Positions 5,641 through 58,691 of a stretch of DNA of 64,000 nt are shown in pieces. The translations under genes and the position numbers were made by a program. The stretch's first letter is position 1. Each line of letters starts with the position of its first letter. The notes beneath the pieces were generated by a model, which was not told the origin of the DNA, made no database searches, and saw only the letters and a list, made by a program, of their open reading frames with translations. Source of the stretch: Heptranchias perlo (lineage: Eukaryota); NCBI RefSeq assembly GCF_035084215.1, contig NC_090366.1:3596001-3660000 (forward strand), given 5' to 3'.

Positions 5641-6240
5641 CAGATCCATGTCCAGTTCAGCTTTACTGACTAGTTTAGGAAAGTGTGTGCAGATCCAGGG
5701 CCCAGTTTGGATTGACTGACTGGTTTATGGATCAGTATTCAGATCCAGGGCCATTGGTTTTACTGATTAGTTTGGGGATGTCGGTTCAGATACGGCTACC
5801 AGTTTAGTCTTACTGACCAGTTTAGGAACGCGGGCTCAGGTTGAGGACCATTTTGGTTTCACTGACGAGATTAGAGATTGTTTTCAGATTCAGGGCCCAG
5901 TATGGTTTTACTGATCAGATTAGGGATTGTTTTCAGATCCAGGGCCCAGTTTGGCTTCATTGTCTCGTTTAGTGATGTGTGTTCGGCTCCAGGCCCAATT
6001 CACTTTTGCTGACCAATTTAGGGATTTGTATTCCGATTGAGGCCTCAGTTTGGTTTTACTGACTAGTTTAGGGATGTGGGTTCACCTACAGTGCCCAATT
6101 TGGTTTAACTGTCTTGTTTAGGGATGTGTTCACAGATCCAGGGCCCAGTTTGGTTTTATTGATTAATTTAGGTGTGTTTGTTCAGATTCATTGACAATTT
6201 TGTTTTACTGACTAGTTTCGGGATTGTGTTCAGATGCAGG
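5641..6240. repeat. ~49-50 bp minisatellite, about 12 units
   Basis: Consensus cagatccagggcccagtttggttttactgactagtttagggatgtgtgtt; units start at 5641, 5690, 5740 and onward. Confidence 0.9.
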
Positions 6241-7139
6241 CTCCACACAAGAACCAGCTCGCTCTCAAGCTGACAGCGGAAGTGGTGTGTGGTCAGCCCA
6301 AGGGCTCTGTCTGTTCATATGATGCTACATCATTGTCTCGGCACTGTTCACATTGGGAACGAGTCAGTGTCTCAATCACTGTTCTCATTGAGTGTGGGTG
6401 AACCGAGGTGGGTTTATTTGCACCGTGTGCCAGTGCAGCTCCAGAGCAGAGGTGTAAAGAGCTCGGTTCTATTTGGAGCCCAATTAGTTGTGGTTTATAC
6501 AGCAACTATGTATCGCTGCTATCTATGACGCTGTTGGGGTGTGAATCATTCTGGACAATTGAACCAGTATGAGCTTACTTGTGGTCAGGTAACATCCGGT
6601 TATAGTATGTGCTGCATCGTGAAAGGAGCTGTTGTGTTTTCAGCTGAATGTTTAAAGTGTATTGCAAAGTGAGAGTTCAGAACTTGAATATTAATAATAT
6701 ATCTACATCATTAATAACACCTGCTAATAACGATGGCGTTATTAAGGTATCAGCTGTGGTTCAGTGGGTAGCGCAGCATCAGGTACAACTGTGAGTATTT
6801 AACACCGTCCAAGGAGGATTTCTACCCGAACATGTTCTGAAAAGGAAAGATGCATTGGGAATTGAGACGAACAATCAGTTTTCTGGTAAATAGTAACAGA
6901 CCCCCCGTGTGCTGACAGTGTGAAGCGGGATAAAACACATTGGACCCACCGCGCCATCTATTTGTCACAGCCAGAAACTAAACCTTCATTCGAAATCGTG
7001 GCATTAACTATATTAACATGTCGCTAATACACAGAGTGCAGAGGCAGGAGAGACCAGAGTGACTCTCTCCCCGCTCTGTCACATGGCAGTTTGTGTTTCG
7101 CAAAACTGATTTTGACTAATTCGAAGCAGAAATACTCGT

Positions 7140-8490
7140 TTGTGTATCGGTAGCACGTGTTCTTTGTGTATCTGTACCGCGTGTTCTTTGTGTATCTGAA
7201 CCATGTGTATTTTGGGTATCTGTACCACGTGTCTTTTGTGCAGCTGCACCACGTGTTTTTGTGTAGCTGTTCCACGTGTGCTTTGACTATCTATATCAAG
7301 TGTTCTTTGTATATCTGCATCACATGTTCTTTCCGTATCTGTACTACGTGATATTTATGTATCTGTGCCACGTGTTCTTTGTTGATCTGTAACACCTAGT
7401 CTTTGTGTACCTGTTCCACGTGTTTTTGATGTATCTGTACCATGTGTTCCTTGTGCGTATGTAACGTGATGATTGTGTATCCTTACAACATGTTATTTGT
7501 GTAACTGTACCACGTGTTCCTTGTGTAACTGAACCACGTGTTTTTGTTTATACGTACCCAGTCTTCTTTTTCGATCTGTCCCCCGTGTTCTTTGTGCATC
7601 TGTATTACGTCTGCTTGGCATACGTTCACCACAATTCGATGTGCATCTGCACCAAATGCTATTTGTGTATCTGAACGAAGTGTTTTTATGTATTTGTACC
7701 TAATGTACTTTGGGTATCTGTACCAGGCGGTCCTTTTATATGTGCACCACATGTTATTTGTGTATCTGGACCATGTGTTCTTTATTTATCTGTACCACGT
7801 GTTCTTTGCGCATCTGTACCAAGTGTTCCTTGTGTATCTGCACCACGTGGTGTTTGTGTAACAGTACCACGTGTTTTTTATGCACCTCCATATATTCTGC
7901 GCATATCTGTACCACGTGTTCTTTGTGTATCAATCCCACGTGTTCTTTGTGCATCAGTCCCACGTGTTCATTGTGTATCGTCAAATCTGTACCAGGTGTG
8001 TTTTTTATATCTGCACTACAATTATTTATGTATCTGTGTCACGTGTGCTTCGTATAGCTGTTTGTGTATTGGTACCAAGTTTTGTTTGTGCATCTGTAGC
8101 ACGTGTTCTTTGTGTGTCTGCACCGCGTGTACTTTGTGTATCTGTACCACGTGATGTTTGTGTATCTGTAAATCGTAACCTTTGTGTATCTGTACCAAAT
8201 ATTCTTTGCGTATCTGTACCAGTGCCTTGTGTATCTGTACAAAATGTGCTTTGTATATTTGTACCACAATTCTTTGTGTATCTGTACCACGTGTTTTTTG
8301 TGTATCCATACCAAGTGTTCCATAAGTGTCTGTGCCACGTGTTCTTTGTGGATCGGTACCACGTGTTCTTTGTGTATCTGCCCCACGTGTACTTTGTGGA
8401 TCTGTATAACGTGCCTTTGTGTATCTGTACCAACAGTTCTTTTTGCATCTGCACTCTGTGATCTTTGTGTACCTGCATCAGGTTTCCTTT
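7140..8490. repeat. 24-bp minisatellite (gtgtatctgtaccacgtgttcttt)n
   Basis: Dozens of degenerate units; a unit length divisible by 3 explains the 8-aa periodic ORFs in several frames. Confidence 0.95.
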
Positions 8491-8499
8491 GTATTGCAG

Positions 8500-8656
8500 G
8501 GAGGTCATTGTGAGAACGATCCAGACAATAACGTCGGGGAACTGATAGCAGATCCGACTGAGCAGAACGAAGAAATTAATTACGCCACCGTGCATTTTTC
8601 AACTGTTCTTCCAGGGCATAGACTTGAGTCAATATGCCGATATTAAGTATAACTGA
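8500..8656 (+). pseudogene. Orphan ITIM-bearing terminal exon, copy 1 (opposite strand to the Siglec-like genes)
   Basis: ttcctttgtattgcag| phase 0 GGHCENDP...EEINYATVHF; an out-of-frame YADIKYN* follows. Confidence 0.6.
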
Positions 8657-14770: not shown

Positions 14771-15979
14771 TTTATGAACTATTGCAGATTCCTCTCCAAC
14801 TTCACCAAGACAATGACTGCAATCAGAATGATAACTGCGGCGGCTGTTCTTATTCGCATGGCTATTATAAATGAAAATGTACCTAACATATTCAAAAGAA
14901 TAAGTTTGGAGCTCATTATTCCTCTGAGATTACAACACGGTATGAGCATTTATCAGCATATATGGGAACGTGTAAACATTACAGCCCAGCGTTACACTTA
15001 TTCACTAAACAATGGAGGGAGTTCCTAATAATGCATGTATTTCTATTCAAGTCAAAACTTAACACACACCTCGGTACTATTCAATGTACCAGCAGCCCAC
15101 TGTAGCCAGTGACGTAGGCGAGGAGTATCACGATATCTTTCCATTCTTGGCTTAAGTTAAATGGCACTGAGAAGATGGAATATAATCGACAAAAGGAACA
15201 AGCGAAAAAAAAATACCTAAAATAGAAAGATTGACATGAGATCTGGAAGCATGTTCATTTATAATATTCCGGGCATTGGTTTTGTTCAGTCCGAATTAAT
15301 AGTCACCTTCATCGCTCTCCCGGATGTATTTTATCCGTAAGAAATATTGTTTTTTTATAAAGTCGCTGGTGAACTCAGCTCGCCCTCTATAGTTCAAGTG
15401 TATATTGTCTCGGCCTCTTGAATTATAGATAATAAAGACCCCTCGGGTTCCAGGATCAGAACCCCTCTTTAACCACATACCCCGTGGGTTGCGGCCATCG
15501 ACGGGATAATCAAATTTCCACGGGATCTCTGCACATAAACCGCTCACTGGCGTCACAAAGCATGGCATCGCCACAGACTATGGTGAACTCTGGACAACTG
15601 ATGATAAATAGAAATTAAACACCCACTGACATCACCAATAATGTCCCAATTCAAACATTCCCGAACAGTCCAGCTAAATGCTTTTAAATTACTCTTTAAT
15701 CACGCACTAATCTATTCATCCCTAACCATTAAAACTCGTGAAATCCCCACTGAAACTCTTTAAATTCGATTACAATTCTCATTGATACCCAATAAAACAC
15801 ACATTGTGTTCAATAAATCCTAATAAAATACAGAATAAAGTTTTGAATGTGACTTAAATAGCCACTTGGTGAATTTACAAATCACTAACTAACCATTTAA
15901 CATGTCTGTAATTACTTTGTTATTTTTCCACAAGATGGAAAACGTCTCCAGCAGAAATAATTATGACGAATATTTTAAT

Positions 15980-24466: not shown

Positions 24467-24551
24467 CTCCGTACCATCACCGCGATCAGAAACAGGATGA
24501 TCAAAGTAGCCGCTGCTGCAACTGGGATGACAATTTTCCAGGGAAAAGTTC
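24467..24551 (-). CDS. Gene B transmembrane exon (uncharged core)
   Basis: tttcag|GA..AG|gtatgt, 85 nt; GTFPWKIVIPVAAAATLIILFLIAVMVRR. Confidence 0.85.
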
Positions 24552-26925: not shown

Positions 26926-27148
26926 TAATGTATTATTCCGATCGCAACTTTTAGTGAGTTAGTCGTCAGTTGCGGACTATACCTACTTAAATTATTCATT
27001 GGAATCCGTCCATACTTGCAGATGGATTTGGTATTCAACTGTCGAATGGAGCTAGTATTTGCTGACACTAACACCGTTCATTTAGTAGCGTGCCAGTGAC
27101 GGAAAAATCCAGCTATAGTAATTAAATTCCACGAAATGTCAGGATTAC

Positions 27149-27433
27149 CTGCTAAATTGTGTTGATATTTCCCGAAACTAACGCCGTGCTCGTTTGCTGC
27201 AACACATGAGATCTGGTTTCCAGTTCCAGTTGGGTGAGTCAATATCAGGGAGCTCTGCACCAAGTGACCATTCACTGCCCAGGAGATAACTTCATCTGAA
27301 CTGTTCCTCGTGACGTTTCTTCCATTGAGACCCCATGTGATATTTGCCGGGGGGTTGGCTCTGACACTGCAGGTACAATCAATCCCACTCTCACAAATGG
27401 TGCAATTCGGGCCTGATACTATTGAAGGTTTAT
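27149..27433 (-). CDS. Gene B exon: membrane-proximal Ig domain 4
   Basis: tttag|AT..GCAG|gtaatc, 285 nt; SGPNCTICESGIDCTCSVRANPPANITW...ISCVAANEHG. The C..CxC pattern recalls MAG d5 and the Siglec-5/10/11 proximal domains. Confidence 0.88.
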
Positions 27434-28048
27434 CTAAATAAAAATAAAAGAGTTCAGCTTCAATTAGTTTTCATCAAACAGTATGCAGTGTCTAAGTAGA
27501 ACCGATTTGGGCCTTTAGACTAACCAGAGAGGTTACTGCACAGCCGTGTTTAATTGGAGCCATACAAAGATACATTCATTTAATGGATCATCTGATTTTG
27601 CTTTTTGCTAAATTCTAACAATCAATAACTCAGTTATAAATTCTCATCGAACCAATAAGCGGTCATTTGATCAATTTATCTTCATGCTGTGGGCGATTAC
27701 CCAGTTAAAATATGGTAAACAATACAGACTAACTTACCTCAACTGTCTGTTCTGGTAAAACTGTTTGTATATAATGTTATCAATTTTTACCATTGTGATT
27801 GAATAACGTGTTCTTCCACTTCAGGCCTCTGGGATCAGTCTTCCCGCACATTAATTCTGGAGCTCCACATCACACATATTCATTAATTTGGTTTTAACCA
27901 GTCTGAGATACATTTTACCTGGTTTTGTGCAATGGGGTCTCTGGTTTTTAACGATGTTTTTTACCCGCTAAATGTGGTCAAATTCTCCTTCTTTTACTGG
28001 CTTTTCTGTGAATATTACTAACATCGGCTATTGAGAGAGTTGTGTGAA

Positions 28049-28233
28049 CACGGGGGAAATATCACCCATGCGTAGTCACTGTGCAACGGATCATTGATGT
28101 CCCTTTATACATTTAATAGATTCACACTGTACTTACGTTGTATAAAAATCTGTGTGGAGCTGTTTGCGGTCCCCTAGTTATCTCCAGCCATGCGCCAATG
28201 TTATATATATGTTACGTTTGATCCTCAACAGAA
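28049..28233 (+). repeat. Left arm of 185-bp inverted repeat flanking the Ig3 exon
   Basis: Aligns without gaps to the reverse complement of 28763-28947, e.g. ctgtacttacgttgtataaaaatctgtgt and agttatctccagccatgcgcca. Confidence 0.9.
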
Positions 28234-28397
28234 CCTGGTGTGAGGAAGATTAGCTTTCCAAATATCAATGAGATGAATAGGAAATGATTAACTCCAGTAC
28301 CAGTCTGCGAGTTTTGATGGTGATTGTTTATAACAGTGAATAACTTCAGTAAATTAATATAATAAAGAGAATGAACGTAGTTTCACACCGCACTTAC

Positions 28398-28655
28398 ATT
28401 GCACAGAAATCTGTGTGAAGCTCTTTGCGTTGCCTACGATATTTTCAGCAACGCACCAATATTGTCCGTCATCTTTAGAACTAATGTTGTGAAATATCTG
28501 CCTCAGTTCACCGGTGGAAGACATGCTGATCTCCGAACCATCTCTCACCCATCTTAAACTGACCGGTAGTTCACCCTGGGCCATGCAGTACAGTAATACT
28601 GAACTTCCTTCCACTGCTACTATCGAGGAATTGACGATTGGTTCCCGAGAGGCAG
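28398..28655 (-). CDS. Gene B exon: Ig domain 3 (C2/I-set)
   Basis: accag|CT..CAAT|gtaagt, 258 nt; VEGSSVLLYCMAQGELPVSLRW..DDGQYWCVAENIVG. Confidence 0.88.
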
Positions 28656-28762
28656 CTGGTAATGCGGAGGTCATTGGCGGTAAATGAGAATTCCAGCACA
28701 TAAGACAAAAAAAACAATTTAAGTGACAACCAGAGAGCAATATGTCGTGACTATTTTGTTAA

Positions 28763-28947
28763 TTCTGATGAGGATCAAACGTAACATAAATGTAAGAATG
28801 GCGCATGGCTGGAGATAACTTGGTCACTACAAACAGCTCAACACAGATTTTTATACAACGTAAGTACAGTTTCAATCTATTAAATGTATAAGGGGACATC
28901 AGTGATCCGTTCCACATTGACTACGTATGGGCGTTATTTCACTCGTG
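28763..28947 (-). repeat. Right arm of 185-bp inverted repeat
   Basis: Reverse complement of 28049-28233, roughly 85% identity by eye. Confidence 0.9.
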
Positions 28948-29618
28948 ATGTCTTATTCCTTCAGCTCATTTCAAACATAAGCATCTTTCCCCCTCTTGTC
29001 ATTAAAGATTTGTCTGTTTGCCCGGGTAAAGTTCTAGTCCAGCGTTACTTCAACAAAGTGAACATTCCTCCCAGAACAAGAACTTGGTCGACTTTCCCTT
29101 CCCTCACACAGGGATGTTGAGGCCAATTGTAGCATCTCGACCCAACCGCACCAGTTAATTCAAAACAGACACTCCTGCTCTGTATGATGCATTCAAGGGC
29201 AAGGTCGAGAAACACACGACAGTAAAAAGAATAGAAGGTCACGTTGATGGGATTGGATGTAGAGAAGTGGGAGAAGGATCATTTGGTGCATAAACGCCAG
29301 CACGAGCACGTTGGGCCGAATGGCCTGTTTTTGAGCTGTACATTTTATGTAATGTTAATCAGTTACTCTGTGGCAAAAACGGCATCTGGCATTGGGATCC
29401 ATTGGAATCATTTTGTACACAAACCACACCCGTGGAACCACCAATATTACTCCAATGGTTTGGGGAAAATATTAAGCAAAGGGACTGACAAGAATTAGGT
29501 CTTAGACAGTTCGATTAATTGATTTTCCAGTCGAGCTCTCACTACAATGAGAATAATAACAACTTCACAACCTGTTTACCAACAGGTTGGGTGAATCAAG
29601 CATAGAGCGGGTATTTAC

Positions 29619-29930
29619 ATTTACCGGCCAGTTAAAGAGTTTCTTGAACAGTAGCTTCGACACCTTCAACAATAAGTTTACACCCCAGCGTTTTCCCATG
29701 ATGGTCTGATGATGGGACGAATGTGAAAATGGATGAAACCCTCCGGGAATCATCGAAACCGTTGACATTTTGTTCGGAAGTTTTAGTCTCTGTCAGAAAA
29801 GGAAAGTAACCTTGATCATAAGTATACTTCAGCTCAAGGTTGGCGGATTCGCAACTGTGGGTGATCGAGCAGGTCAGTTGCGCTGGTTGTCCAGCGATCA
29901 ATTCCCCAGAGACTGATATACTTGGATTTT
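29619..29930 (-). CDS. Gene B exon: Ig domain 2, with in-frame TAA near its 3' end
   Basis: Paralog of 819-1130; QETL* where paralogs have ACA (Thr); the conserved C-strand Trp is also changed to Tyr. Confidence 0.88.
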
Positions 29931-30791
29931 CTGTAAGGAGAGAAGGAAATTACAGTGGATTTCAATTTTGAAAACGGCCAATGATGTGCCAGGCGATTCA
30001 ACCCAAATTCTGAGAAAATATCACCTTAAAAATGAATCCTGTTCTTTTCCGCCTGCTCTCAGCTGCAGGGAATAATGCCTAAACTTAATAACTTCTTAAA
30101 ATTACTGATCTCATCGGATCACATATGCACTCAGACGCTTTATCACATGAATTATTCACGTTATTGGCAGTGAATTAACTGCCACTCACACACTGCTTTG
30201 CTGGCAACTCAAAATGGTCTCTTCAAATATCAGCAACCATTAAACCCGCTCATGCCTCATTGGGTAAATTCATTATTTGATGTGATACTGAACCATTCGG
30301 CCAGCCCGGACCCACATTCTATCCCAAATCTGTATTTGGGATAGAATCCAGTACCTTTTTTGCGCGAACTGCTTCAAAGAAGCGATGGTTGGAGACAGTC
30401 CTGACTGACCCTAGAAATCCCTCCTGTGCTGAGACCATATCGACTCTACCCTTCCTACAGAATTAAAAACTTTGACTTCCTTTTGCGCTTCAATTATGTA
30501 TTTAAATTTGAACCGCCGGTCTGTACGTTTCAATACAACATCTAACATTGCACTTACCAACTGAACAACGCAGGGAGCTTCTGTAAGTTATTAAGAATAG
30601 CCCAGTGTCATATTTCTGTTCAAGATAATGCATAACACTCACCTGGGTAATATTCAGTGGAGGAGCCGTGCCGCTGTAACATGTGACGTAGGCCAAAAGT
30701 ATCACGAAATTTTTCAATTCAAGGCTTAAATTAAATGGCACTGAGGAGACGGAATATAAACTACAAAAGGAATAAATGAATAAAAACTTGC

Positions 30792-31549: not shown

Positions 31550-31592
31550 CTTCGCTAAATACCAGAATTAAAATAACATTTAGGCTCTTCAT
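31550..31592 (-). CDS. Gene B signal-peptide exon
   Basis: MKSLNVILILVFSE + G|gtaaaa, 43 nt. Confidence 0.8.
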
Positions 31593-31794
31593 GACTGGCG
31601 GAGTTTCACGTTGTCAAAATTACAAACTAAAAATTAACCCCGATCTCACATTAATCACGTTTCTGGATTCCGCCCACCCTGAATATACTGGATTTCCTCG
31701 CGAAACAGAGCACCGAGAGGTCAGCTGTTCGGCACCCACCAATCCACGGGGACCGTGATGGCTCATACAGCTTGAGACACTCCCCCACTGTTTT

Positions 31795-32190
31795 CAGATC
31801 CATGGCCCAGTTGGTTTTACTGTCTAGATTAGGGATTGTTTTCGGATCCAGGGCCCAGTATTGTTTTACTGACTAGTTTAGGGATTGTTTTCAGCTCCAG
31901 GGTCCAGTCTGGTTTCATTGTCTAGTTTAGTGATGTGTGTTCAGCTTAAGGCCCAATTCACTTTTGCTGACTAATTTAGGGATTGTATTCCGATTGAGGC
32001 CTCAGTTTGGTTTTCCTGACGTGTTTAGGGATGTGTGCTCACCTATAGTGCCCGATTTGGTTTAACTGTTAAGTTTAGGGATGTGCTCACAGATCCACGT
32101 TCCAGTTTGGTTTTACTGATTAATTTAGGTGTGTTTGTTCAGATCCAGGGCCCAGTTTTGTTTAACTCACTAGTTTAGGGATTGTGTTCA
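31795..32190. repeat. ~50-bp minisatellite, copy 2 (left-truncated)
   Basis: Same unit as 5641-6240. Confidence 0.9.
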
Positions 32191-33092
32191 TGTAGGCTCG
32201 ACACAAGAATCATTTCGATCTCAGGCTGACAGCTGAAGTGGTGTGTGGTCAGCCAAGAGTCTCCGGCAGTTCATATGATTCTATCTCATTGTCTCGGCAC
32301 TGTTCACATTGGGAATGAGTCAGTGTCTCACCCGTTGTTCTCATTGAGTGTGGCTGCACCGAGGTGCGTTTATTTACACCGTGTGCCAGTACAGCTCCAG
32401 AGCAGGGGTGTAAAGAGCTCGGTTCTATTTAGTGCCCAATTAGTTGCGGTTTATACAGCAACTATGTATCGCTGCTATCTATGACGCTCTTGGGGTGTGA
32501 ATCATTCTAGAAAATTAAACCAGAATGAGCTTACTTGTGGTCAGGTAACATCCGGTTATAGTTTGTGCTGCATCGTGAATGGAGCTGTTGTGTTTTCAGC
32601 TGAATGTTTAAAGTGCAATGCATGTGAGAGTTCAGAACGTGAATATTAATAATATATCTACATTATTAAAAATACCTGCTAATAACAATGGCGTTATTAA
32701 TGTGTCAGTTGTGGCTCAGTGGGGAGCGCAGCATGAGGCACAAGTGTGAGCATGTAACACCGTCCAAGGCGGATTTCTACCCTAACATGTTCTGAAAAGG
32801 AAGGATGGATTGGGAAGGGACAGGAACAATCAGTTTACTGGTAAATAGTAAAAGATCCCCCGTGTACTCGCAGTTTGTGGCGGGATGAAACACAGTGGAC
32901 CCACCGCGCCTCCTATTTGGAACAGCCAGAAACTAAACATGCATTCGAACTCCTGGCAATAACTATATTAACATGTCGCTGTACAAAGGTGCAGAGGCAG
33001 GAGAGACCAGAGTGAGGTTCTCCCCACTCTGTCCCATGGCAGTTTCAGTTTCGCAAAACTGATTCTTACTAATTCGAAGCAGAATTACTCCT

Positions 33093-34750
33093 TTGTGTAT
33101 CTGTAGCACGTGTTCTTTGTGTATCTGTACCGCATGTTCATTGCGTATCTGATCCATGTGATTTTGGGTATCTGTACCACGTTTCTTTTGTGTAGCTGCA
33201 CCACGGGTTCGTTGCCTACCCGCATCACATGTTCTTTGCCTATCTGTATCGAGTGTTCTTTGTGTATCTGCATCACATGTTCTTTCCGTATCTGTACCAC
33301 GTTTTCTTTGCGTATCTGTACCACGTTTTCTTTGTTGATCTGCACCACGTAGTCTTTGTGTACCTGTTCCACATGTTCTTGGTGTATCTGTACCAAGTGT
33401 TCGTTGTGCATCTGCAACGTGGTAATTGTGTATCCGTACAACATGTTCTTTGTGTAACTGTACCACGTCTTCTTTGTATAACTGCACCAAGTGTTTTTGT
33501 GTATTTGTACCCAATGTTATTTTCGGATCTGCACCCCTTGTTCTTTGTGTATCTGTACCACGTTTTCTTGTTGTATCTGTACCACGTGGTCTTTATTTGC
33601 CTGTACCACGTGTTCTTTGTTGATCTGCACCTCTTGATCTTTGTGTACCTGTACCACGTGTTATTTGTGCATCTGCACCACATTTTCTTTATGTATCTGT
33701 ACCACATATTCTTTGTGTGTGTGCACTAGTGTCTTTGAGCACCTGTACCACGTGAGCTTGGTGTACCTGTACCGCAATTCTTTATGTATCTGCACCACAC
33801 GCTATTCGTTTATCTGAACCATGTGTTCTTTATGTATCTGTACTGAATGTACTTCAAGTATCTGTACCAGGTATTCATTTCGTGTCTGTACCACGAGGCC
33901 CTTTTGTATCTGCACCACAAGTTATTTGTGTATCTGGACCATGTGTTCTTTATGTATCTGTACCACTTGTTCTTCATGCATCTGTACCACGTGTTCCTTG
34001 TGTATCAGTACCAGGTGTTCTCTGTGTATCTTCATATATTCTGCGCATATCTGTAACATGTGAGCATTGTGTATCTGAACCACGTGTTCATTGTTCATCT
34101 GTGCTAAGTGTTTTTGTGTATCTGCCCCACGTGTTCCTTGTGTATCTGTACCTGCGAATCTGTACCAGGTGTGCTTTGTATATCTGAACGACAATTATTT
34201 GTTTATCTGTGCCACGTGTGCTTTTTATAGCTATTTGTAATTATTTGTGCATTGGTACCAAGTTTTGTTTGTGCATCTGTAACACGTGTTCTTATTGTAT
34301 CTGGTCCACGTGTTCTTTGTGCATCTGTACGGCTTGTAATTTGTGTAACTGTACCAATTGATTTTTGTGTGTCTGTAACACGAGTTATTTGTGTATATGG
34401 ACCACGTGTTCTTTTTGTATCTGTATCACGTCTTCTCTGTGTATCTGTAGGGCGTGTGCTTTGTGTATCTGTACCACGTGATCCTTGTGTATCTGTACCA
34501 AATATATTTTGGGTGTCTGTACCACGTCTTGTTTGGGTATCTGTACTGCATGTTCTTTCTTACTCTGTGCTACCTGTTCTATGAGGATCTGAACCACGTG
34601 TTCTTTGTGCATCTGTCCCACGTGTTCTTTGTGGATCTGTGCCGCGTGTCTTTTTGGATTTGTGCCACGTGTTATTTGTGTATCTGTACTAAGTGTTCTT
34701 TGCGTATCTGTACCACGTGTTCTTTTTGTACCTGCACCACGTTTCCTTTG
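33093..34750. repeat. 24-bp minisatellite, copy 2
   Basis: Same unit as 7140-8490; longer array. Confidence 0.95.
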
Positions 34751-41164: not shown

Positions 41165-44112
41165 TGTGGCAGGGGGATGGGAACCGATGCAGGAAGCCAG
41201 TGGGAAATAAAGTGGTGACAGAAACAAAAGGCAGTAAGGGAGAGTGTACAGAACATGACCGGACAGATGGTCTGAGAAAGCAGGGCAAAGACCAAGGGAA
41301 GTCTAGATTAAACTGCATTTATTTCAATGCAAGAAGTCTGATGGGCAAGGCAGATGAACTCAGGGCATGGATGGGTACATGGGACTGGGATGTTATAGCT
41401 ATTACTGAAACATGGCTAAGGGAGGGGCAGGACTGGCAGCTCAATGTTCCAGGGTACAGATGCGATAGGAAAGATAGAGCAGGAGGTAAGATAGGAGGGG
41501 GAGTTGCGTTCTTGATTAGGGAGAACATCACGGCAGTAGTGAGAGGGGATATATCCGAGGGTTCGCCCACTGAGTCCATATGGGTAGAACTGAAAAATAA
41601 GAAGGGAGAGATCACTTTGATAGGATTGTACTACAGACCCCCAAATAGTCAACGGGAAATTGAGGAGCAAATATGTAAGGAGATTACAGACAGCTGCAAG
41701 AAAAATAGGGTGGTAATAGTAGGGGACTTTAACTTTCCCAACATTGACTGGGACAGCCATAGCATTAGGGGCTTGGATGGAGAGAAATTTGTTGAGTGTA
41801 TTCAGGAGGAATTTCTCATTCAGTATGTGGATGGCCCGACTAGAGAGGGGGCAAAACTTGACCTCCTCTTGGGAAATAAGGAAGGGCAGGTGACAGAAGT
41901 GTTAGTGAGGGATCACTTTGGGACCAGTGATCATAATTCCATTAGTTTTAAGATAGCTATGGAGAAGGATAGGTCTGGCCTAAAAGTTAAAATTCTAAAT
42001 TGGGGAAAGGCCAATTTTGATGGTATTAGACAGGAACTTTCAGAAGTTGATTGGGAGAGTCTGTTGGCAGGCAAAGGGACGTCTGGTAAGTGGGAGGCTT
42101 TCAAAAGTGTGTTAACCAGGGTTCAGGGTAAGCACATTCCTTATAAAGTGAAGGGCAAGGCTGGTAGAAGTAGGGAACCTTGGATGACTCGGGAGATTGA
42201 GGCACTAGTCAAAAATAAGAAGGAGGCATATGACATGCATAGGCAGCTGGGATCAAGTGGATCCCTTGAAGAGTATAGAGATTGCCGGAGTAGAGTTAAG
42301 AGAGAAATCAGGAGGGCAAAAAGGGGATATGAGATTGCTTTGGCAGATCAGGCAAAGGTGAATCCAAAGAGCTTCTACAAATACATAAAGGGCAAAAGGG
42401 TAACTAGGGAGAGAGTAGGGCCTCTTAAGGATCAACAAGGTCATCTAAGTGCGGAACCACAAGAGATGGGTGAGATCCTGAATGAATATTTGACATCGGT
42501 ATTTACGGTTGAGAAAGGCATGGATGTTAGGGAACTTGGGGAAATAAATAGTGATGTCTTGAGGAGTGTACATATTACAGAGAGGGAGGTGCTGGAAGTC
42601 TTATCGCGCATCAAGGTAGATAAATCTCCGGGACCTGATGAAATGTATCCCAGGACGTTATGGGAGGTTAGGGAGGAAATTGCGGGTCCCCTAGCAGAGA
42701 TATTTGAATCATCCACCGCGACAGGTGAGGTGCCTGAAGATTGGAGAGTAGCAAATGTTGTGCCTTTGTTTAAGAAGGGCGGCAGGGAAAAGCCTGGGAA
42801 CTACAGACCAGTGAGCCTGACATCTGTAGTGGGTAAGTTGTTAGAGGGTATTCTGATGGACAGGATCTACAGGCATTTGGAGAGGCAGGGACTAATTAGG
42901 AACAGTCAGCATGGTTTTGTGAGAGGAAAATCATGTCTCACGAATTTGATTGAGTTTTTTGAAGGGGTAACCAAGAAGATAGATGAGGGCTGTGCAGTAG
43001 ACGTGGTCTACATGGACTTCAGCAAAGCATTTGACAAGGTACCGCATGGTAGGTTGTTACATAAGGTTAAATCTCATGGGATCCAAGGTGAGGTAGCCAA
43101 TTGGATACAAAATTGGCTTGACGACAGAAGACAGAGGGTGGTTGTCGAGGGTTGTTTTTCAAACTGGATGCCTGTGTCCAGCGGTGTGCCTCAGGGATCG
43201 GTGCTGGGTCCGCTGTTATTTGTTATTTATATTAATGATTTGGATGAGAATTTAGGAGGCATGGTTAGTAAGTTTGCAGACGACACCAAGATTGGTGGCA
43301 TTGTGGACAGTGAAGAAGGTTATCTAGGATTGCAACGGGATCTTGATAAATTGGGCCAGTGGGCCGATGAATGGCAGATGGAGTTTAATTTAGATAAATG
43401 TGAGGTGATGCATTTTGGTAGATCGAATCGGGCCAGGACCTACTCCGTTAATGGTAGGGCGTTGGGGAGAGTTATAGAACAAAGAGATCTAGGAGTACAG
43501 ATTCATAGCTCCTTGAAAGTGGAGTCACAGGTGGATAGGGTGGTGAAGAAGGCATTCAGCATGCTTGGTTTCATTGGTCAGAACATTGAATGCAGGAGTT
43601 GGGATGTCTTGTTGAAGTTGTACAGGGCATTGGTGAGGCCACACTTGGAGTACTGTGTACAGTTCTGGTCACCCTATTATAGAAAGGATATTATTAAACT
43701 AGAAAGAGTGCAGAAAAGATTTACTAGGATGCTACCGGGACTTGATGGTTTGACTTACAGGGAGAGGTTAGACAGACTGGGACTTTATTCCCTGGAGAGT
43801 AGGAGGTTAAGGGGTGATCTTATAGAAGTCTATAAAATAATGAGGGGCATAGATAAGGTCGATAGTCAAAATCTTTTCCCAAAGGTAGGGGAGTCTATAA
43901 CGAGGGGGCACAGATTTAAGGTGAGAGGGGAGAGATACAAAAGGATCCAGAGGGGCAATTTTTTCACTCAAAGGGTGGTGAGTGTCTGGAACGAGCTGCC
44001 AGAGGCAGTAGTAGAGGCGGGTACAATTTTGTCTTTTAAAAAGCATTTGGACAGTTACATGGGGAAGATGGGTATCGAGGGATATGGGCCAAGTGCAGGC
44101 AATTGGGACTAG
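41164..44112 (+). CDS. CR1 ORF2: AP endonuclease + reverse transcriptase, uninterrupted (982 aa from the ATG at 41164)
   Basis: NARS, ITETW, GDFN, SDH (APE); KSPGPD, YRPVSL, DFSKAFD, GVPQGSVLGP, FADD (RT); TAATG stop/start overlap with ORF1. Confidence 0.95.
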   Translation: MWQGDGNRCRKPVGNKVVTETKGSKGECTEHDRTDGLRKQGKDQGKSRLNCIYFNARSLMGKADELRAWMGTWDWDVIAITETWLREGQDWQLNVPGYRCDRKDRAGGKIGGGVAFLIRENITAVVRGDISEGSPTESIWVELKNKKGEITLIGLYYRPPNSQREIEEQICKEITDSCKKNRVVIVGDFNFPNIDWDSHSIRGLDGEKFVECIQEEFLIQYVDGPTREGAKLDLLLGNKEGQVTEVLVRDHFGTSDHNSISFKIAMEKDRSGLKVKILNWGKANFDGIRQELSEVDWESLLAGKGTSGKWEAFKSVLTRVQGKHIPYKVKGKAGRSREPWMTREIEALVKNKKEAYDMHRQLGSSGSLEEYRDCRSRVKREIRRAKRGYEIALADQAKVNPKSFYKYIKGKRVTRERVGPLKDQQGHLSAEPQEMGEILNEYLTSVFTVEKGMDVRELGEINSDVLRSVHITEREVLEVLSRIKVDKSPGPDEMYPRTLWEVREEIAGPLAEIFESSTATGEVPEDWRVANVVPLFKKGGREKPGNYRPVSLTSVVGKLLEGILMDRIYRHLERQGLIRNSQHGFVRGKSCLTNLIEFFEGVTKKIDEGCAVDVVYMDFSKAFDKVPHGRLLHKVKSHGIQGEVANWIQNWLDDRRQRVVVEGCFSNWMPVSSGVPQGSVLGPLLFVIYINDLDENLGGMVSKFADDTKIGGIVDSEEGYLGLQRDLDKLGQWADEWQMEFNLDKCEVMHFGRSNRARTYSVNGRALGRVIEQRDLGVQIHSSLKVESQVDRVVKKAFSMLGFIGQNIECRSWDVLLKLYRALVRPHLEYCVQFWSPYYRKDIIKLERVQKRFTRMLPGLDGLTYRERLDRLGLYSLESRRLRGDLIEVYKIMRGIDKVDSQNLFPKVGESITRGHRFKVRGERYKRIQRGNFFTQRVVSVWNELPEAVVEAGTILSFKKHLDSYMGKMGIEGYGPSAGNWD

Positions 44113-44451
44113 CTTAGTGGTATAAACTGGGCGACATGGACATGTTGGGCCGAAGGGCCTGTTTCCATGTTGTAACTTCTATGATTCTATGATTCTATGA
44201 TTCTATGGGTCCCTTGCTGTTTGTGGTCTACATTAATGACTTGGATATGAATGTAAAAGGTATGATCAGTAAGTTCGCTGATGATACAAAAATTGGTAGG
44301 GTGGTAAATAGCGAGGAGGACAGCCTCAGTCTGCAGGACGATATAGATGGGTTGGTCAGATGGGCGGAACAGTGGCAAATGGAATTTAACCCGGAAAAGT
44401 GCGAGGTGATGCACTTTGGAGGGACTAACAAGGCAAGGGAATACACAATGA

Positions 44452-45220
44452 ATCATGGAATCATAGAATCATAGAAGTTACAACATGGAAACAGGCCCTT
44501 CGGCCCAACATGTCCATGTCGCCCAGTTTATACCACTAAGCTAGTCCCAATTGCCTGCACTTGGCCCATATCCCTCTATACCCAACTTACCCATGTAACT
44601 GTCCAAATGCTTTTTAAAAGACAAAATTGTACCCGCCTCTAGTACTGCCTCTGGCAGCTCGTTCCAGACACTCACCACCCTTTGAGTGAAAAAATTGCCC
44701 CTCTGGACCCTTTTGTATCTCTCCCCTCTCACCTTAAATCTATGCCCCCTCGTTATAGACTCCCCTACCTTTGGGAAAAGATTTTGACTATCGACCTTAT
44801 CTATGCCCCTCATTATTTTATAGACTTATATAAGATCACCCCTTAACCTCCTACTCTCCAGGGAAAAAAGTCCCAGTCTGTCTAACCTCTCCCTGTAAGT
44901 CAAACCATCAAGTCCCGGTAGCATCCTAGTAAATCTTTTCTGCACTCTTTCTAGTTTAATAATATCCTTTCTATAATAGGGTGACAAGAACTGTACACAG
45001 TACTCCAAGTGTGGCCTCACCAATGCCCTGTACAACTTCAACAAGACATGCCAACTCCTGCATTCAATGTTCTGACCAATGAAACCAAGCATGCCGAATG
45101 CCTTCTTCACCACCCTATCCACCTGTGACTCCACTTTCAAGGAGCTATGAATCTGTATTCCTAGATCTCTTTGTTCTATAACTCTCCCAACGCCCTACCA
45201 TTAACGGAGTAGGTCCTGGC
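44452..45220 (-). mobile_element. Second young CR1 copy (3' ~770 bp), inverted, nested in the host CR1
   Basis: Reverse complement almost identical to 43432-44206. Confidence 0.92.
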
Positions 45221-47239: not shown

Positions 47240-50200
47240 CTCTTGATTCAAAAAATACAAATGCTGTCTATCACGTAATTACTGGTAATTAGTTTTAATA
47301 AATCATCCAGTGTCCGTATGGTGAATCACGCGCGTGCACTATCGCAGCAGCGATTTGTTATCATAGTGGCCTTGTAGGTAGAGCACAGGAGGAGACCATT
47401 CGGCCCAGCGGGCCTGTGCCACCTCTTTGAAAGAGCTATCCAATTAGTCACATTCCACTGCTCTTTCCCCATTGCCCTGGATTTTTTTTCCTTCAAGTAT
47501 TTATCCAATTCGCCTTTGAAAGTTATTATTGAATTTGCTTCCACCGCCCTTTCAAGCGGAGCATTCCAGATCATAACAACTCGCTGCGGAAAAAAATATT
47601 TCCTCATGTCACTTCTTTTGCCGATCACCTTAAATCTATGTCCTCTGGTTACCGACCCTTCTGCCACTGGAAACAGTTTCTCCTTATTTACTCTGTTAAA
47701 ACCGTTCATGATCTTGAACACCTCCATCAAATCTCCCCTTAACCTTCTTTCTTCTGAGGAGAACAATCCCAGCTTCTCCAGTCTCTCCACATAACTGAAC
47801 TCCCTCATCCATTGGACTTCCTTGATTAGATGGAACCATATTTCAGTTCCGTTCGCTTTCTATCTCTACACTGCCATAATCCTTAAGGAACGTTTCTCTC
47901 GATCTGATAAAGTAGGTAAATTCTATCGTCATCTGCTTTGACATTCCCAAATTTAGTGTTCACTGTACAGTTTCTGAATGGTCGACTGAGCGCCGGCGAC
48001 TGATGCAAAGTATCTATTTGAAATCACATGTCCTAAACGTTGGCGTGAGTTTGCCCTGCAGTGTCCTGGAATGGCTCTGTGGAGTTTTTTTGTTATTACC
48101 TCCTGAGTCCTGAGTTTTCGATTGGCGTTTGTTTTAAGAACTTTGAACTTACAAGTGAAAGAGCTACGAACGCGCCATGGTCCAGAGTGGAGTTATTCTG
48201 GTCTATTACCAGAGCTGGGAGAAGGGATACACCGATCAGGGTCGATTGACACTCGGATATTGCCCTACTTTCACCACAGATTCACCCGACCTCCATTAAC
48301 CCTTCCCTCCACAACTGGTAGCTAACATTGATGTGCAATGCTTTCAGGTTTTAAGTATTTTAAGAAATATTTTCTCATAGGCTGAAATCCTGATGTCACA
48401 GTCCCTTTGAAATCTGTCTGACTAATTCATGAGTGTAAATAATTGTAAATCATACCTGTATGAATTCCTCTCTATCTTCACCATGGAAATGGCAGCAATC
48501 AGAATGAAAACTGCGACCGCTGTTCTTATTGCCATGACAATTTTCCATGAAATTGTTCCTAAAATATTCAGAAAAAAAGACCTTGCTGCTGACTATTGTA
48601 CTAAGATTACAACACGGTGTTCGGATAGCATTTATCCTCAAGTACCGGAATCTGTAAAGAAAGAACTCGCACTTCACGCCATCCCAAAGCGCTTTACAGC
48701 CAATGAAGTACTGCTGAAAAGTAGCCACTGTTGTAATGCAGGGAACGCGGCAGCCAAATTGCGCATGGGAAGATCCCACAAACAGCGATGAGGTAATGAC
48801 CTCGTGATCTGTTTTTAGTGATGTTGGTTGAGCGATAAATATTGGCCAAGACGCAAGGCGAGAATTTCCCTGCTCTTATTCCAAAGATTAAACAGTACAG
48901 TTTCGAAGTGCAGTCCCAGGAGGGTGTATATGCACATATTGTATCCTCGGATCTGTTTCCGTCCTATCCAATATTTCAATTCAGTCTGTAATCTGCTTTT
49001 TTCCAATTATCCCAGGTATTCTGGCTCCATTTGCAGGATTATCGCACTTTATATTCTTCTCAGAATATCGTCACGGTAACAATCCGAGGAGCAATCTGAA
49101 CTAGACATAAGAACTGCTTCATTAAACTGTGCGAACAGGATGGAACAGAGCTTGTATCAATTGACTGATAGACAGCAGCACGCAACGGTTACAGTGAGAG
49201 GAAACAGGACTTCATACAGCGTGTAATTAATTCAGCAGGTTCCGTTTTGTTGAAGATCGCACGCTACTTCTATTGTTGTATATTAATCCCTTCCGAACTC
49301 AACAAAATCCAGGCATCAGTAAACCTTGGCCGGGTTATGGAAAATCATTGACAAATTTAAAATGGATTATTCCGATTGCAACTTTCAGTGCGTCATTGGT
49401 CGGTGAGGGGCCAGACCCCTTTAGTTCTGAAATTATCCGTCGATTCTGTACTAAATTACTGGTGGATTTGGCAATTAACTGCCAAATGGAGCTGGTATTT
49501 GCTGACGCTAACACCGTTCACCTAATGACGGGCCAATAATCAAAGAACCTTTCTACAGTAATTAAATTGCTGCAAATATCAGGACTTACCTGCTGAATGG
49601 AGTTGATGTTTGCCGAAAGTAACGCCGTGCTCGTTTGCTGCAACACATGAGATCTGGTTTCCAGTACGAGTTGGGTGAGTCAGTGTCAGGGAGTTCGGCA
49701 CCAGGTGACCATTCACTGCCCAGGAGATAACTTCATCTGAACTGTTCCGAGTGATGGTTCTTCCATTGAGACCCCATGTGATATTTGCCGGGGGGTTGGC
49801 TCTGACACTGCAGGTACAATCAATCCCACTCTCAGAAATGGTGCAGTTCGGGCCTGATACTACTGAAGGTTTATCTAAAAAAAAGAGGCAATTTCAACTT
49901 CAGGTAGTTTTCATCAAGCAGTTTGCAGTGTCTAAGTAGAACCGATTTGGACCTTTAGACTAACCAGAGAGGTTACTGCACAGCCGTGTTTAATTGGAGC
50001 CATACAAAGATACATTCGTTTAATGGATCATCAGATTTTGCTTTTTGCGAAATTCTAGCAATCAATAACTCAGTTATAAGTTCACATCGAACCAATGAGC
50101 GGTCATTTGATCCATTTATCTTCATGCTGTGGGCGATTACTCGGTTAGAATACTGTAAACAATACAGACTAACTCACCTCAACTGTCCGTTCTGGTAAAA

Positions 50201-53200
50201 CTGTTAGTATTTAATCTTATAAACTTCTACCTTTGTGATTGACTAACGTGTTCTTCCACTTCAGGGCCGCTGGGATCAATCCCCCGCACATTAATTCTTG
50301 CGTTTCACATCTCACATATTCATTAATTTTGTTTTAACCAGTCCAGATACATTTTACGTGGTTTTGTGCATTGGGCTCTCTGGTTTTTAACGATGTTTTT
50401 TCACTCTAAATATGGTCAAATTCTCCTTCTTTTACTGGCCTTCCTGAAAATATTACTGACATCGGCTATTGAGAGAGTTGTGTGAACACGGGGGAAATAA
50501 CACCAATGCGTAGTCACTGTGGAGCGGATCTCTGATGTCCCTTTTAACATTTAATAGATTCACACAGTACTTACGTTGTATAAATGATATAATGTTAATC
50601 AGTTACTCTGTGGCTAAAACGGTAATCTGGCATTGGGATCCTTTGGAATAATATTGGACATAAATCACACCCGAGGAACCACCAGCATTACTCCAATGGT
50701 CTGGGAAAAATTTTAATCAGAGTGACTGACAAGAATTAACTGATAGACAGTCCTTTTAATTGATTATCCAGTCTCGGTCTCACTACATTGAGCATAACAA
50801 CAACTTTAGAACCTGTTTATCAACAAGCTAGTTGAATCAAGCATAGAGCGGGTATTTACATTCAACGGCCATTGTAAGTGTTTTCTGAACAGTAGCTTCG
50901 ACACCTTCAACTATAAGTTTACATCCCAGCGTTTTCCCATGAATGTCCGAGGATGGGACGAAGGTGAAAATGGATGAAACCCTCCGGTAACCATCGAAAC
51001 CGTTGACATTCTGTTCTGAAGTTTTAGTCTCTGTCTGAAAAGGAAAGTGTCCTTGATCATAAGTCCACTTCAGCTCAAGGTTGGCGGATGGGCAATTGTG
51101 GGTGATCGAGCAGGTCAGTTGCGCTGGTTGTCCAGCGATCAATTCCCCAGAGACTGATATACTTGTTTTTTCTGTAAGGGGAGAAGGAAATTATAGTGAA
51201 TTTCAATTTTGAAAACGGCCAATAATGTGCCAGGCGATTCAACCCAAGGACTGGGAAAATATCACCTTAAAAATGAATCCTGTTCTATTCCTCCTGCTCT
51301 CAGCTGCAGGGAATGATGCCTCAAGTCAATTACTCCTTACAATTACTGAACTAATCGGATCACATATGCACTCAGCCGCTTTATCACATGAATTATTCAC
51401 GTTATTGGCCAGTGAATTAATTTCCACTCACCCCCACTACGTTGCTGACAATTCAAAATGAGCACTTCAAATATCAGCAAGCATTAAACCCGCTCATGTC
51501 CTCATTGGGTAAATAAATTGCTTGATGTGATACTGTACCATTAGGCCAGCCCGGTCCCACATTCCATCCCAAGTCTGTGGCTGGGATAGAACCTGGTATC
51601 TTCTTTGCCCGAACTGCTTCAAAAAACGATGGCTGAAGATAGTCCTGACTGGGAACCGAGAGCCTGATACAATCTTACGGGAGGAAACAACAAACAGGCC
51701 TGTCCTGAAAAAGTCATGCAGTCTTCAGCGGAAATATCATGCTGGTGGTGTGCGATGGAATCAATAATTAAATCAGAATTGGAAATCCGGTCAATTGTCG
51801 CGTAGGCATTAGGTTATTAAATATTGAAAGACAAATCTCAGTCCCAAACCTGCGGGGACTCGGGAAGGTCTCTGTAAAACTTAATCTGTCGGTGATGAGG
51901 AAGCGAAAATTGTGAACTTATATTGTTTAATAATCGGAGAAAGGGACAAATTTAGTAGTTTTAGGTGACTGGGAGTTGCCCTGTGGGTTTCACCACCCAT
52001 CGGTCATTAGGTATTTTGGGAAATTTATTTGTTGAAAATTGTACTTGGACGATTGGAAATTGGTCCTTATTGGCCTTTTCTTTATTATGATAATGGACTT
52101 AAAATTATCACTTGGGATAATAACAGAAGACGTTTCTGTCTAATTTCTTGCCACGCCGTTTTAGTGAGCTTTTCTCCATCTATTCTACACGGGTTAACAT
52201 TTCAGCTAAACCTAAGCATTCAAAGGCTCCAAGTGCATGGTTTAATTTGGCGGCCCGTGAGCTCTTTAACGAATTTGTTTGAGTCGGGTTACTGGGATAA
52301 ATAACCCGCAGTCGTTATTCATGCACTCTTTATGACCTGCGCGGTGTGACAATTCATGGAAAAACGTACAAAGAGACGCGTCCATCTGACTCCCATTGGG
52401 ACTATTCAAGGTAAAGCAGGGATGTTCTCCCCGCTGTCTTGGCCAAAATATATCCACCAAGAAACTCCTAAAAACAGATTACCTGATCATTATCTCATTG
52501 CTGTTTGAGAGACCTTGCTGTGCGACAATTGGCTGGGGGATTTTCTACATTACACAAATCATTACGCTTCAAAGTACTTCATTGGCTGTAAAGCTTATTG
52601 GGATGTCCTGATATTTGAAACTCCCGATATCAATTCAATCTTTATTTTTTATTCCTTTATGATATGGAGACCTATAGGTGATTTGACCCTAGAAATCCCT
52701 CCCGTGTTTAAACCATGTCCACCTTCCCTTCCATCAGAATTGCAAACGATGACTTACTTTTGCGCATCAATTATGGATTGAAGTTTGACCCGCCGGTCTG
52801 TACGGTTGCACTTACTAACTGAACAACGCAGGGCGCTTCTGTAAGTTTTTAAGAATACCAATGCCATTTTTCAACTCAAGTCAAGTATTATTCAATGGAC
52901 CAGCCCGGCAGCTGTCGCCAGTGACGAAGGCCAAAAGTATCACGATAACTTTGCATCCGTGGTTTAAATTAAATGGCACTGAGGAGACGGAATATAAACT
53001 ACAAAAAGAACAAATGAAAAAATCTTACCTAAAATATAAAGACTGACGTGAGATGCGGATGTGTTTTGTTCTATACTATACTGGGATTTGCTGATCTTCG
53101 GTCTGAAGTAATAGTCACCTTCATCACTCTTCCTGATATCTTTTATCCGTAAGAAACATTGTTTCCTTGCAAAGTTGCCGCTCAACTCAGTTCGTCCTCG

Positions 53201-53822
53201 ATAATTAAAGTTTATTTTGTCTAAATCTCGGGGATCATGGACAATAAAGACCGCATGGCTTCTAGGGTCAGAACCCCCCTTCAACCACATACCCCATGGA
53301 CTGTGGCCATAGACGGGATAATCAAATGTACACGGGATCTCTGCACATGAACCTTTCACTGCCGACACAAACCACGGCATCTTCACAGACCATCGTGAAC
53401 AAAGGACAACTGATGAAAAATAGAAATTAAACACCCATTGAAATCCCTAATAACATATCAATTGAAACATTCCATGGCATTCCAGCTAAATACTGTTAAA
53501 AATAACCTTTAAACATTCACGAACATATTCATTAGTACGTCTATTAAAGCGTGTGAAATTATCACTAAAACTCTTTAAATTCCATCAAAATGTCGATTAC
53601 AGTCGAAGAAAACAGAAATATTCAAAAAATATCCTACTAAAATACAGAATAAAAGTCCGAATACAATGTACCTTAAATACCCACTTCTGAATTTACAAAC
53701 CACTAAATAACCATATACGATTTGTATCACTAATTACCTTGTTACTTTGCCACATAAGTTGTTAAAAAGAATATTTTACCGTTGCTAAATAGCAGGATGA
53801 AAATAACCTTAATGCTCTTCAT
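47158..53822 (-). CDS. Siglec-like gene C, putative activating type (V + 2 C2 + Arg-TM + short tail), ~401 aa
   Basis: Exons 53822-53780, 53409-53029, 51171-50860, 49874-49590, 48558-48456 and 47239-47158 join in frame (1206 nt) without internal stops; the acceptor of the last coding exon is the least certain part. Confidence 0.8.
47380..47810 (-). mobile_element. CR1 LINE 3' fragment
   Basis: ERLEKLGLFS.E.RRLRGDL..TRGHRFKV..QRVVMIWN. Confidence 0.88.
48456..48558 (-). CDS. Gene C transmembrane exon with intramembrane Arg
   Basis: ttttag|GA..AG|gtatga, 103 nt; GTISWKIVMAIRTAVAVFILIAAISMVKIERNSYR. Confidence 0.85.
49590..49874 (-). CDS. Gene C membrane-proximal Ig exon
   Basis: Intact 285-nt paralog of 27149-27433, GT-AG. 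Confidence 0.88.
50860..51171 (-). CDS. Gene C Ig domain 2 exon
   Basis: Intact 312-nt paralog of 819-1130. Confidence 0.9.
53029..53409 (-). CDS. Gene C V-set exon (Arg retained)
   Basis: 381 nt; GSCAEIPC..CFLRI..DEGDYYFR; GT-AG. Confidence 0.92.
53780..53822 (-). CDS. Gene C signal-peptide exon
   Basis: MKSIKVIFILLFSN + G|gtaaaa, 43 nt. Confidence 0.8.
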
Positions 53823-58685: not shown

Positions 58686-58691
58686 TTGCAG

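What the first reader, a model, noticed from the sequence alone, without database searches (positions are those of the whole stretch)
28049..28947. Ig3 exon enclosed by 185-bp inverted repeats: possible RNA-structure or DNA cassette switch
Seen: ungapped inverted arms at 28049-28233 and 28763-28947 surround the 258-nt phase 1-1 exon, 165 and 107 nt from its splice sites; they do not resemble the LINE/SINE families in the window. Known: flanking inverted repeats promote exon skipping, back-splicing to circRNA and ADAR editing, and can seed deletions or inversions. Inference: a built-in way to toggle ectodomain length (4 vs 3 Ig) in frame, or the trace of a foldback element that captured an exon.
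Basis: partly seen in the sequence, partly recalled or inferred. Interest (0 to 1): 0.75.

Follow-up and report, generated by a model that had tools for sequence, protein, structure and literature searches.

The report
Template-switch inverted copy flanking Ig exon
The inverted repeats around this immune-receptor exon are real, but they likely arose by a local DNA-copying accident that pasted a flipped piece of the next intron upstream, they are drifting like ordinary intron, and the host gene has a stop codon before the exon, so a regulated 4-versus-3-domain switch is unlikely here.

Summary
Observation confirmed: arms 28049-28233 and 28763-28947 pair ungapped at 163/185 around the 258-nt third Ig exon (D3) of a minus-strand Siglec-like gene. 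They are no common repeat: all 14 genome matches lie in this gene family on one contig. The downstream arm holds a decayed Ig-exon 3' end with its GT donor and is shared by all six close paralogs, whole or in part. The upstream arm is an inverted copy of it, found in 2 of the 6, that replaced about 16 nt with 3-nt microhomology at both junctions: a template-switch (FoSTeS/MMBIR-like) product, not a foldback element. Arms diverge like their introns, G-U wobbles are not favoured (8 G-U vs 10 A-C), and this gene has TAA in D2, upstream of D3. The one D2-D4 splice contig found matches a neighbouring paralog that lacks D3 in its DNA. Three-Ig forms arise by deletion (3 of 15 genes). A hairpin is predicted and could cause skipping as a by-product. 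The better test case is paralog L016: open exons, and a second inverted insertion covering the D3 acceptor.

The parts
28763..28947 (+). Upstream (intron 2) arm: inverted copy of the downstream arm; present in 2 of 6 close paralogs (this gene, L016); 199 nt in L016, outer junction eroded by a ~24-nt deletion here
28049..28233 (-). Downstream (intron 3) arm = source copy; older, present whole or in part in all 6 close paralogs
28131..28197 (-). Core of the downstream arm: decayed 3' end of a D3-type Ig exon (61 nt) plus GTAAGT donor; 50-54 of 67 nt identical to five D3 exon ends; decoy donor 261 nt downstream of the real one
   Evidence: (D3 family)
28398..28655 (-). D3 exon, 258 nt, phase 1-1, I-set Ig domain, open
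29619..29930 (-). D2 exon, 312 nt, with in-frame TAA at 29634-29632 (ACA or GCA in 5 of 5 close paralogs) and loss of a Trp kept in w50k, L015, L016 and L020
30792..31172 (-). D1 exon, Siglec-type V-set domain, Arg aligned with sialoadhesin Arg97; GC donor shared with L016
27149..27433 (-). D4 exon, 285 nt, Ig domain (weak C2-set_2/Ig_3 match), open
24467..24551 (-). Transmembrane exon (predicted from hydropathy and paralog conservation)
31550..31592 (-). Signal-peptide coding exon part (predicted; a paralog contig splices at 31550)
49586..53409 (-). Neighbouring paralog 'w50k' with a 1.2-kb genomic deletion of D3 (junction at 50584/50587); best match for the D2-D4 spliced contig

Best explanation
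The upstream arm is an inverted copy of about 200 nt of intron 3, likely made by a microhomology-mediated template switch during DNA replication or repair, and the resulting inverted repeat is likely a neutral by-product in a tandem Siglec-like gene family, here in a copy with a stop codon in D2. Step 1 (inferred): a partial or decayed duplicate of the D3 exon left its 3' end and donor in intron 3 of the subfamily ancestor. Step 2 (junctions shown, mechanism inferred): in the ancestor of this gene and L016 the polymerase left intron 2 at a 3-nt microhomology, copied ~199 nt of the opposite strand 0.5-0.7 kb downstream, and returned at a second 3-nt microhomology, losing ~16 nt. Step 3 (shown): both arms have since diverged at the rate of the introns around them. 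The pre-mRNA is predicted to form a 185-bp imperfect stem that could lower D3 inclusion, but in this gene that would not change the protein because translation would stop in D2. The family's 3-Ig members arise by genomic deletion of D3.
For: Arm matches: 14 in the genome, all on contig C45 in this family. Downstream arm without upstream arm in L015 and L018; both arms in window and L016; deletion in w50k and L020. Empty site in L015/L018 and junction microhomologies GAG and AGA read from the alignment. No shared 5-mer in the 20 nt outside the arms. Window vs L016 identity: upstream arm 166/185 (89.7%) vs 570/642 (88.8%) in intron 2; downstream arm 170/185 (91.9%) vs 468/509 (91.9%) in distal intron 3; arm equally conserved in L015 (92.3%) and L018 (91.9%), which have no partner. 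Of 34 variable columns among the four arms: 23 private, 5 group upstream vs downstream (descent), 3 three-state, 1 crossed, 2 group by locus. Mismatches 8 G-U vs 10 A-C over both loci, p=0.81. TAA in D2. D2-D4 contig X1 record 4 has 29 differences in D2, the number expected for w50k (others 22, 22, 25, 60), and at site 30944 only w50k and L018 carry its letter. Precedents: CHM and MANBA inverted duplications with junction microhomology (PMC8756506, PMC6549551), short-range template switches make inverted repeats (PMC7954356).
Against: Two columns (172, 174) match within each locus, as conversion or compensation would give. The stem is still strong (duplex -254 kcal/mol here, -328 in L016), D3 has a purine-rich acceptor, and exons with weak acceptors are the class most prone to loop-out (PMC13019027). 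L016 carries a second, independent-looking inverted insertion around the same exon, and D3 is lost by deletion in 3 of 15 genes, so selection for D3 loss is not excluded. Only two loci have both arms, so the covariation test is weak. Microhomologies of 3 nt are short.
Confidence: 0.75

Rival explanations
1. The accidental inverted repeat was kept because the stem loops out D3 and gives a 3-Ig isoform beside the 4-Ig one; this would operate in the L016 gene (and formerly in this gene before its D2 stop).
For: Phase 1-1 exon; 164 (window) and 187 (L016) arm-arm pairs in MFE folds; weak-looking acceptor; second nested inverted insertion in L016 pairs 268 bp and also covers the D3 acceptor; a 3-Ig paralog is expressed and spliced D2-D4; 2 locus-wise columns.
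Against: No excess conservation or G-U bias; D2 stop in this gene; the only D2-D4 junction found fits w50k.
Confidence: 0.13
2. The upstream arm was kept because it masks the decoy GT donor inside the downstream arm, protecting correct D3 splicing.
For: Decoy donor intact in both genes that have the upstream arm, deleted in L015 and disrupted by a 1-nt insertion in L018, the two D3-bearing genes without it; use of the decoy would add stop codons in 4 of 4 genes.
Against: Only 2 versus 2 genes, not independent; w50k keeps the decoy donor unmasked about 280 nt from the D2 donor and a normally spliced D2-D4 contig matches it.
Confidence: 0.06
3. The arms are recombination targets that invert or delete the D3 cassette in DNA.
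For: Both D3 deletions of the subfamily (w50k, L020) end inside the downstream arm.
Against: All 12 D3 copies are in gene orientation; longest exact match between arms is 30 nt (35 in L016); w50k and L020 are sisters with nested deletions and group away from window+L016 in D1 and intron 1 trees (support 77 and 82; trees of other segments unresolved); a third D3 deletion (L029) has no arm.
Confidence: 0.04
4. A foldback transposon with 185-bp terminal inverted repeats captured the exon.
For: Long inverted arms around an exon.
Against: No dispersed copies; no target-site duplication; downstream arm predates the upstream one and contains exon-derived sequence; D3 is at its ancestral place in 12 of 15 genes.
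Confidence: 0.02

Closest known systems
Intragenic inverted duplications by FoSTeS/MMBIR, e.g. CHM exon 12 (PMC8756506) and MANBA exons 8-11 (PMC6549551)
   Same: Local inverted copy, microhomology at both junctions, small loss at the insertion point, predicted pre-mRNA hairpin near an exon.
   Different: Here the copy is ~200 nt, intronic (only an exon relic is copied), old (10-12% diverged), carried by two paralogs; skipping is not shown.
Short-range template-switch mutations (four-point model; PMC7954356)
   Same: Reverse-complement copy of nearby sequence creating an inverted repeat in place of a short ancestral stretch.
   Different: Template lies 0.5-0.7 kb away and the copy is ~200 nt; I did not run their pair-HMM.
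Inverted Alu pairs in loop-out exon skipping and circRNA formation (PMC13019027; PMC4201285 abstract listing only)
   Same: Similar arm length, identity and distance; exon with weak-looking acceptor and consensus donor.
   Different: Arms are not transposon copies; no skipping, back-splicing or editing shown for this locus.
Siglec family (sialoadhesin, CD33-related, MAG) for the host gene
   Same: V-set D1 best matches sialoadhesin (E 1e-13), with Trp2 and Arg97 aligned and the Cys pattern kept; tandem cluster with frequent domain loss.
   Different: Orthology, ligand binding and cytoplasmic motifs not tested; this copy has a D2 stop.

Membership tests
Microhomology-mediated templated inverted insertion (FoSTeS/MMBIR-like) | Insert is a reverse-complement copy of nearby sequence | tested here: met
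   163/185 here, 181/199 in L016
Microhomology-mediated templated inverted insertion (FoSTeS/MMBIR-like) | Empty ancestral site in relatives, with a short loss | tested here: met
   L015, L018 and the second L016 insert keep the ~16-nt ancestral stretch
Microhomology-mediated templated inverted insertion (FoSTeS/MMBIR-like) | Microhomology at both junctions | tested here: met
   3 nt each (GAG, AGA), read by eye; short, and the right one is blurred by later changes
Microhomology-mediated templated inverted insertion (FoSTeS/MMBIR-like) | Which pathway (replication switch versus polymerase-theta repair) | not testable with these tools
   Both leave such junctions (recalled)
Foldback / TIR transposon | Dispersed copies with paired ends | tested here: not met
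   14 matches, all in this gene family on C45 (the search is a lower bound)
Foldback / TIR transposon | Target-site duplication | tested here: not met
   No shared 5-mer in 20 nt outside the arms in either locus
Foldback / TIR transposon | Both termini inserted together | tested here: not met
   Downstream arm present alone, whole or in part, in 4 of 6 close paralogs
Functional loop-out / back-splicing inverted repeat | Stable stem enclosing the exon in pre-mRNA | tested here: met
   Predicted only
Functional loop-out / back-splicing inverted repeat | Skipped or circular isoform from this gene | tested here: inconclusive
   The D2-D4 joint found fits a D3-less paralog; the runs cannot test this gene
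Functional loop-out / back-splicing inverted repeat | Covariation or excess conservation of arms | tested here: not met
   Intron-level divergence, 8 G-U vs 10 A-C, 2 of 34 variable columns locus-wise; only two loci
Functional loop-out / back-splicing inverted repeat | A-to-I editing of the arms | not testable with these tools
   Only contigs were served
Invertible DNA cassette | Both orientations found | tested here: not met
   12 of 12 D3 copies in gene orientation in the assembly; DNA reads not examined
Siglec | N-terminal V-set domain with the essential Arg and Siglec Cys pattern | tested here: met
   Alignment to sialoadhesin; Pfam V-set and Ig_CD22
Siglec | Sialic-acid binding; cytoplasmic ITIM or charged TM residue | not tested
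   Cytoplasmic exons not mapped; TM of this copy has no charged residue

The most novel reading that the evidence does not exclude
In the L016 paralog, two successive template-switch insertions built nested, partly competing RNA stems around D3 (one loops it out, one covers its acceptor), creating a transposon-free alternative exon de novo that tunes Siglec ectodomain length, and that parallels the outright D3 deletions in three other family members.
Probability: 0.12. Interest if true: 0.55.

Novelty: new member of a known kind. Interest (0 to 1): 0.22.

Why it matters
As it stands it is a clean natural example of how a template switch makes an exon-flanking inverted repeat without a transposon, with before and after states kept in sister genes, and a warning that D2-D4 'skip' reads in this cluster can come from paralogs that deleted the exon. 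If the L016 stems do control D3, it would show alternative splicing of an immune receptor arising from replication errors, with natural controls (no arm, one pair, two pairs, exon deleted) in one genome.

Tried and rejected
RNA: the look-up of sequencing runs listed no RNA holder, only 3 guessed-RNA contig runs of one sample. Laid at 85% likeness: 0 of 301, 301 and 331 laid records were 99% or more alike to this gene, the arms had no cover, and no back-splice joint was listed; this says nothing on expression, skipping or editing of the window gene. Some records could not be assigned to a paralog (X3 records 14, 18). Rfam: 0 matches in 27000-30000. Test that the whole spacer is a decayed full D3 copy: not significant (1 of 15 comparisons below p=0.05), nor was homology of intron starts to outgroup genes (0 of 18), so only the 67-nt core is claimed. 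Paralog trees: only D1 and intron 1 gave moderate support for window+L016; D2, D4, intron 3 and 4 trees were unresolved, probably from gene conversion. No other species could be searched (G000 has no relatives here). No protein-homolog search was run. Paper searches: one search found 0 papers; two searches listed nothing on this cluster by title and abstract start; these six searches do not show that the locus is undescribed. Earlier scan findings near this place: none.

Full report
Observation. The two arms are at the stated places, 185 nt, ungapped, 163 of 185 complementary, 529 nt apart, far beyond chance. They enclose a 258-nt phase 1-1 exon at 28398-28655 on the minus strand, 164 and 107 nt from it. 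The host is a Siglec-like gene: signal exon, V-set D1 whose best solved match is sialoadhesin with Trp2 and Arg97 aligned, D2, D3 (I-set), D4 and a TM exon. It belongs to a tandem family on contig C45 of G000, in two clusters near 3.4-3.65 and 10.26-10.46 Mb; 14 D4 exons were found by search and one more in L024, 15 genes in all.

What the arms are. A genome search with one arm gave 14 matches, all in this family (a lower bound, but no dispersed repeat). Positions 37-103 of the arm are the last 61 nt of a D3-type exon plus a GTAAGT donor: 48-55 of 67 nt identical to five D3 exon ends, with the Cys codon and the frame decayed. Homology further upstream is not significant. So the downstream arm carries an exon relic 261 nt behind the real donor. 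A like relic arose separately in L029, where a deletion left about 35 nt of the D3 end in the intron, and L024 has two D3-type exons in tandem.

History. Six genes form the close subfamily. L015 and L018 have D3 and the downstream arm only. The window gene and L016 have both arms. w50k (window 49.6-53.4 kb) and L020 lack D3 through nested deletions that end in the downstream arm. At the insertion site L015 and L018 show the empty state; the insert replaces about 16 nt, is 199 nt long in L016, and has 3-nt microhomology with the template at each junction (GAG, AGA; read from the alignment). There is no target-site duplication. The two upstream arms share 5 derived columns and group together (78/86, weak), and the two genes share a GC donor at D1 and group in D1 and intron 1 trees (77, 82): one insertion, inherited. 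This anatomy matches inverted duplications ascribed to FoSTeS/MMBIR in CHM (PMC8756506, passages read) and MANBA (PMC6549551, passages read), and short-range template switches that create inverted repeats (PMC7954356, passages read). The mechanism is inferred; the junctions are shown.

Is the pairing selected? Window versus L016: upstream arm 166/185 against 570/642 in the flanking intron 2; downstream arm 170/185 against 468/509 in distal intron 3; the downstream arm is as conserved in genes with no partner. Of 34 variable columns, 23 are private, 5 follow descent, 3 are three-state, 1 is crossed and 2 follow the locus. These two lie 2 nt apart, and L018 shares the L016 letters, which fits one short conversion in L016; they are the only sign in favour of co-evolution. 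Mismatches are 8 G-U to 10 A-C (p=0.81). With two loci the test is weak, but nothing exceeds neutral drift.

Could it toggle the protein? A stem is predicted: 164 arm-arm pairs in the MFE of the D2-D4 pre-mRNA. Inverted Alu pairs are enriched around skippable exons, mostly with small effect except at weak acceptors (PMC13019027, abstract and one results section read), and the D3 acceptor here is purine-rich near the AG (no splice-strength score computed). Some skipping as a by-product is therefore plausible. But this gene has TAA at 29634-29632 in D2, two adjacent substitutions from the ACA or GCA of 5 of 5 close paralogs. Inclusion or skipping of D3 would not change the product, which would be degraded or truncated (inference).

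RNA. Three contig runs from one sample were laid at 85% likeness. A canonical D2-D4 joint appears in X1 record 4, but its 29 differences in D2 equal those of w50k (others 22, 22, 25, 60) and its D1 letters fit w50k: it is the normal mRNA of a gene with no D3. The D3-D4 joint (records 1 and 17) matches L018 at 8 of 8, 12 of 12 and 18 of 18 listed sites in D3, D4 and D1 (the table shows 40 of 135 sites). What was not covered is listed under Tried and rejected.

DNA switch and foldback. All 12 D3 copies are in gene orientation, the longest exact match between arms is 30 nt, the D3-less sisters group away from the arm-bearing genes in the two trees with support, and L029 lost D3 without arms. The exon is at its ancestral place, so it was not captured.

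What remains open. L016 has open D1-D4 exons and a second inverted insertion in intron 3, a copy of intron 2 that includes the D3 acceptor, 95% like its own intron 2 in the main part yet with the ancestral empty site, so probably younger and copied from a sister or allele. It adds a predicted 268-bp outer stem. Two such events around one exon, three D3 deletions, and a decoy donor that is intact where the upstream arm exists and damaged in L015 and L018 leave room for a functional reading, which I put at about 0.12-0.2 in total. An existing inverted repeat may also simply invite further switches (recalled, untested).

Verdict. Real feature, known kind of origin, likely neutral, in a likely pseudogene; interest 0.22. 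Supplements of the four papers were not opened and do not bear on the claims taken from them. The organism was not identified.

Noticed in passing
L016:8388-8919 (G000:C45:10264388-10264919): Second complex inverted insertion in intron 3 of the L016 paralog: reverse complement of ~440 nt of intron 2 including the D3 acceptor, followed by a ~90-nt local inversion; gives nested predicted stems around D3.
   Followed up: partly
L018:6700-7700: The best-covered family transcript fits L018, whose usual D2 and D3 acceptors are lost; contig lengths fit a cryptic 171-nt D2 and a D3 extended by 24 nt, both in frame (inferred).
   Followed up: partly
L029:4740-4820: Independent D3 deletion in the older subgroup leaving ~35 nt of the exon end and its donor; D2 there is frameshifted in an A run.
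   Followed up: partly
L024:6346-8084: Family member with two tandem D3-type exons (a longer ectodomain).
   Followed up: no
window 1-146 and L015:9560-10000: In L015 a ~520-nt repeat is inserted within a few bases of the site where the upstream arm was inserted in the window gene and L016.
   Followed up: no
window 43432-45220: Another, younger inverted pair: 43432-44217 and 44433-45220, 97.5% over 789 nt, about 215 nt apart, made of interspersed-repeat sequence.
   Followed up: no
window 61770-63947: Long open frame on + with reverse-transcriptase and RNase H-like motifs, apparently an LTR retroelement pol (recognised from memory, not searched).
   Followed up: no
window 5630-8500, 31790-34750, 55780-58690: Each paralog unit carries a ~49-nt and a ~24-nt minisatellite array upstream of the gene.
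   Followed up: no
L016/L017 TM exon (L017:1935-2020 approx.): The L016 TM segment has a Glu where the window, L015 and L020 genes have Val/Ala.
   Followed up: no
window 15218-15597: Further D1 exon copy with two stop codons and no D2-D4 match behind it in the window.
   Followed up: no
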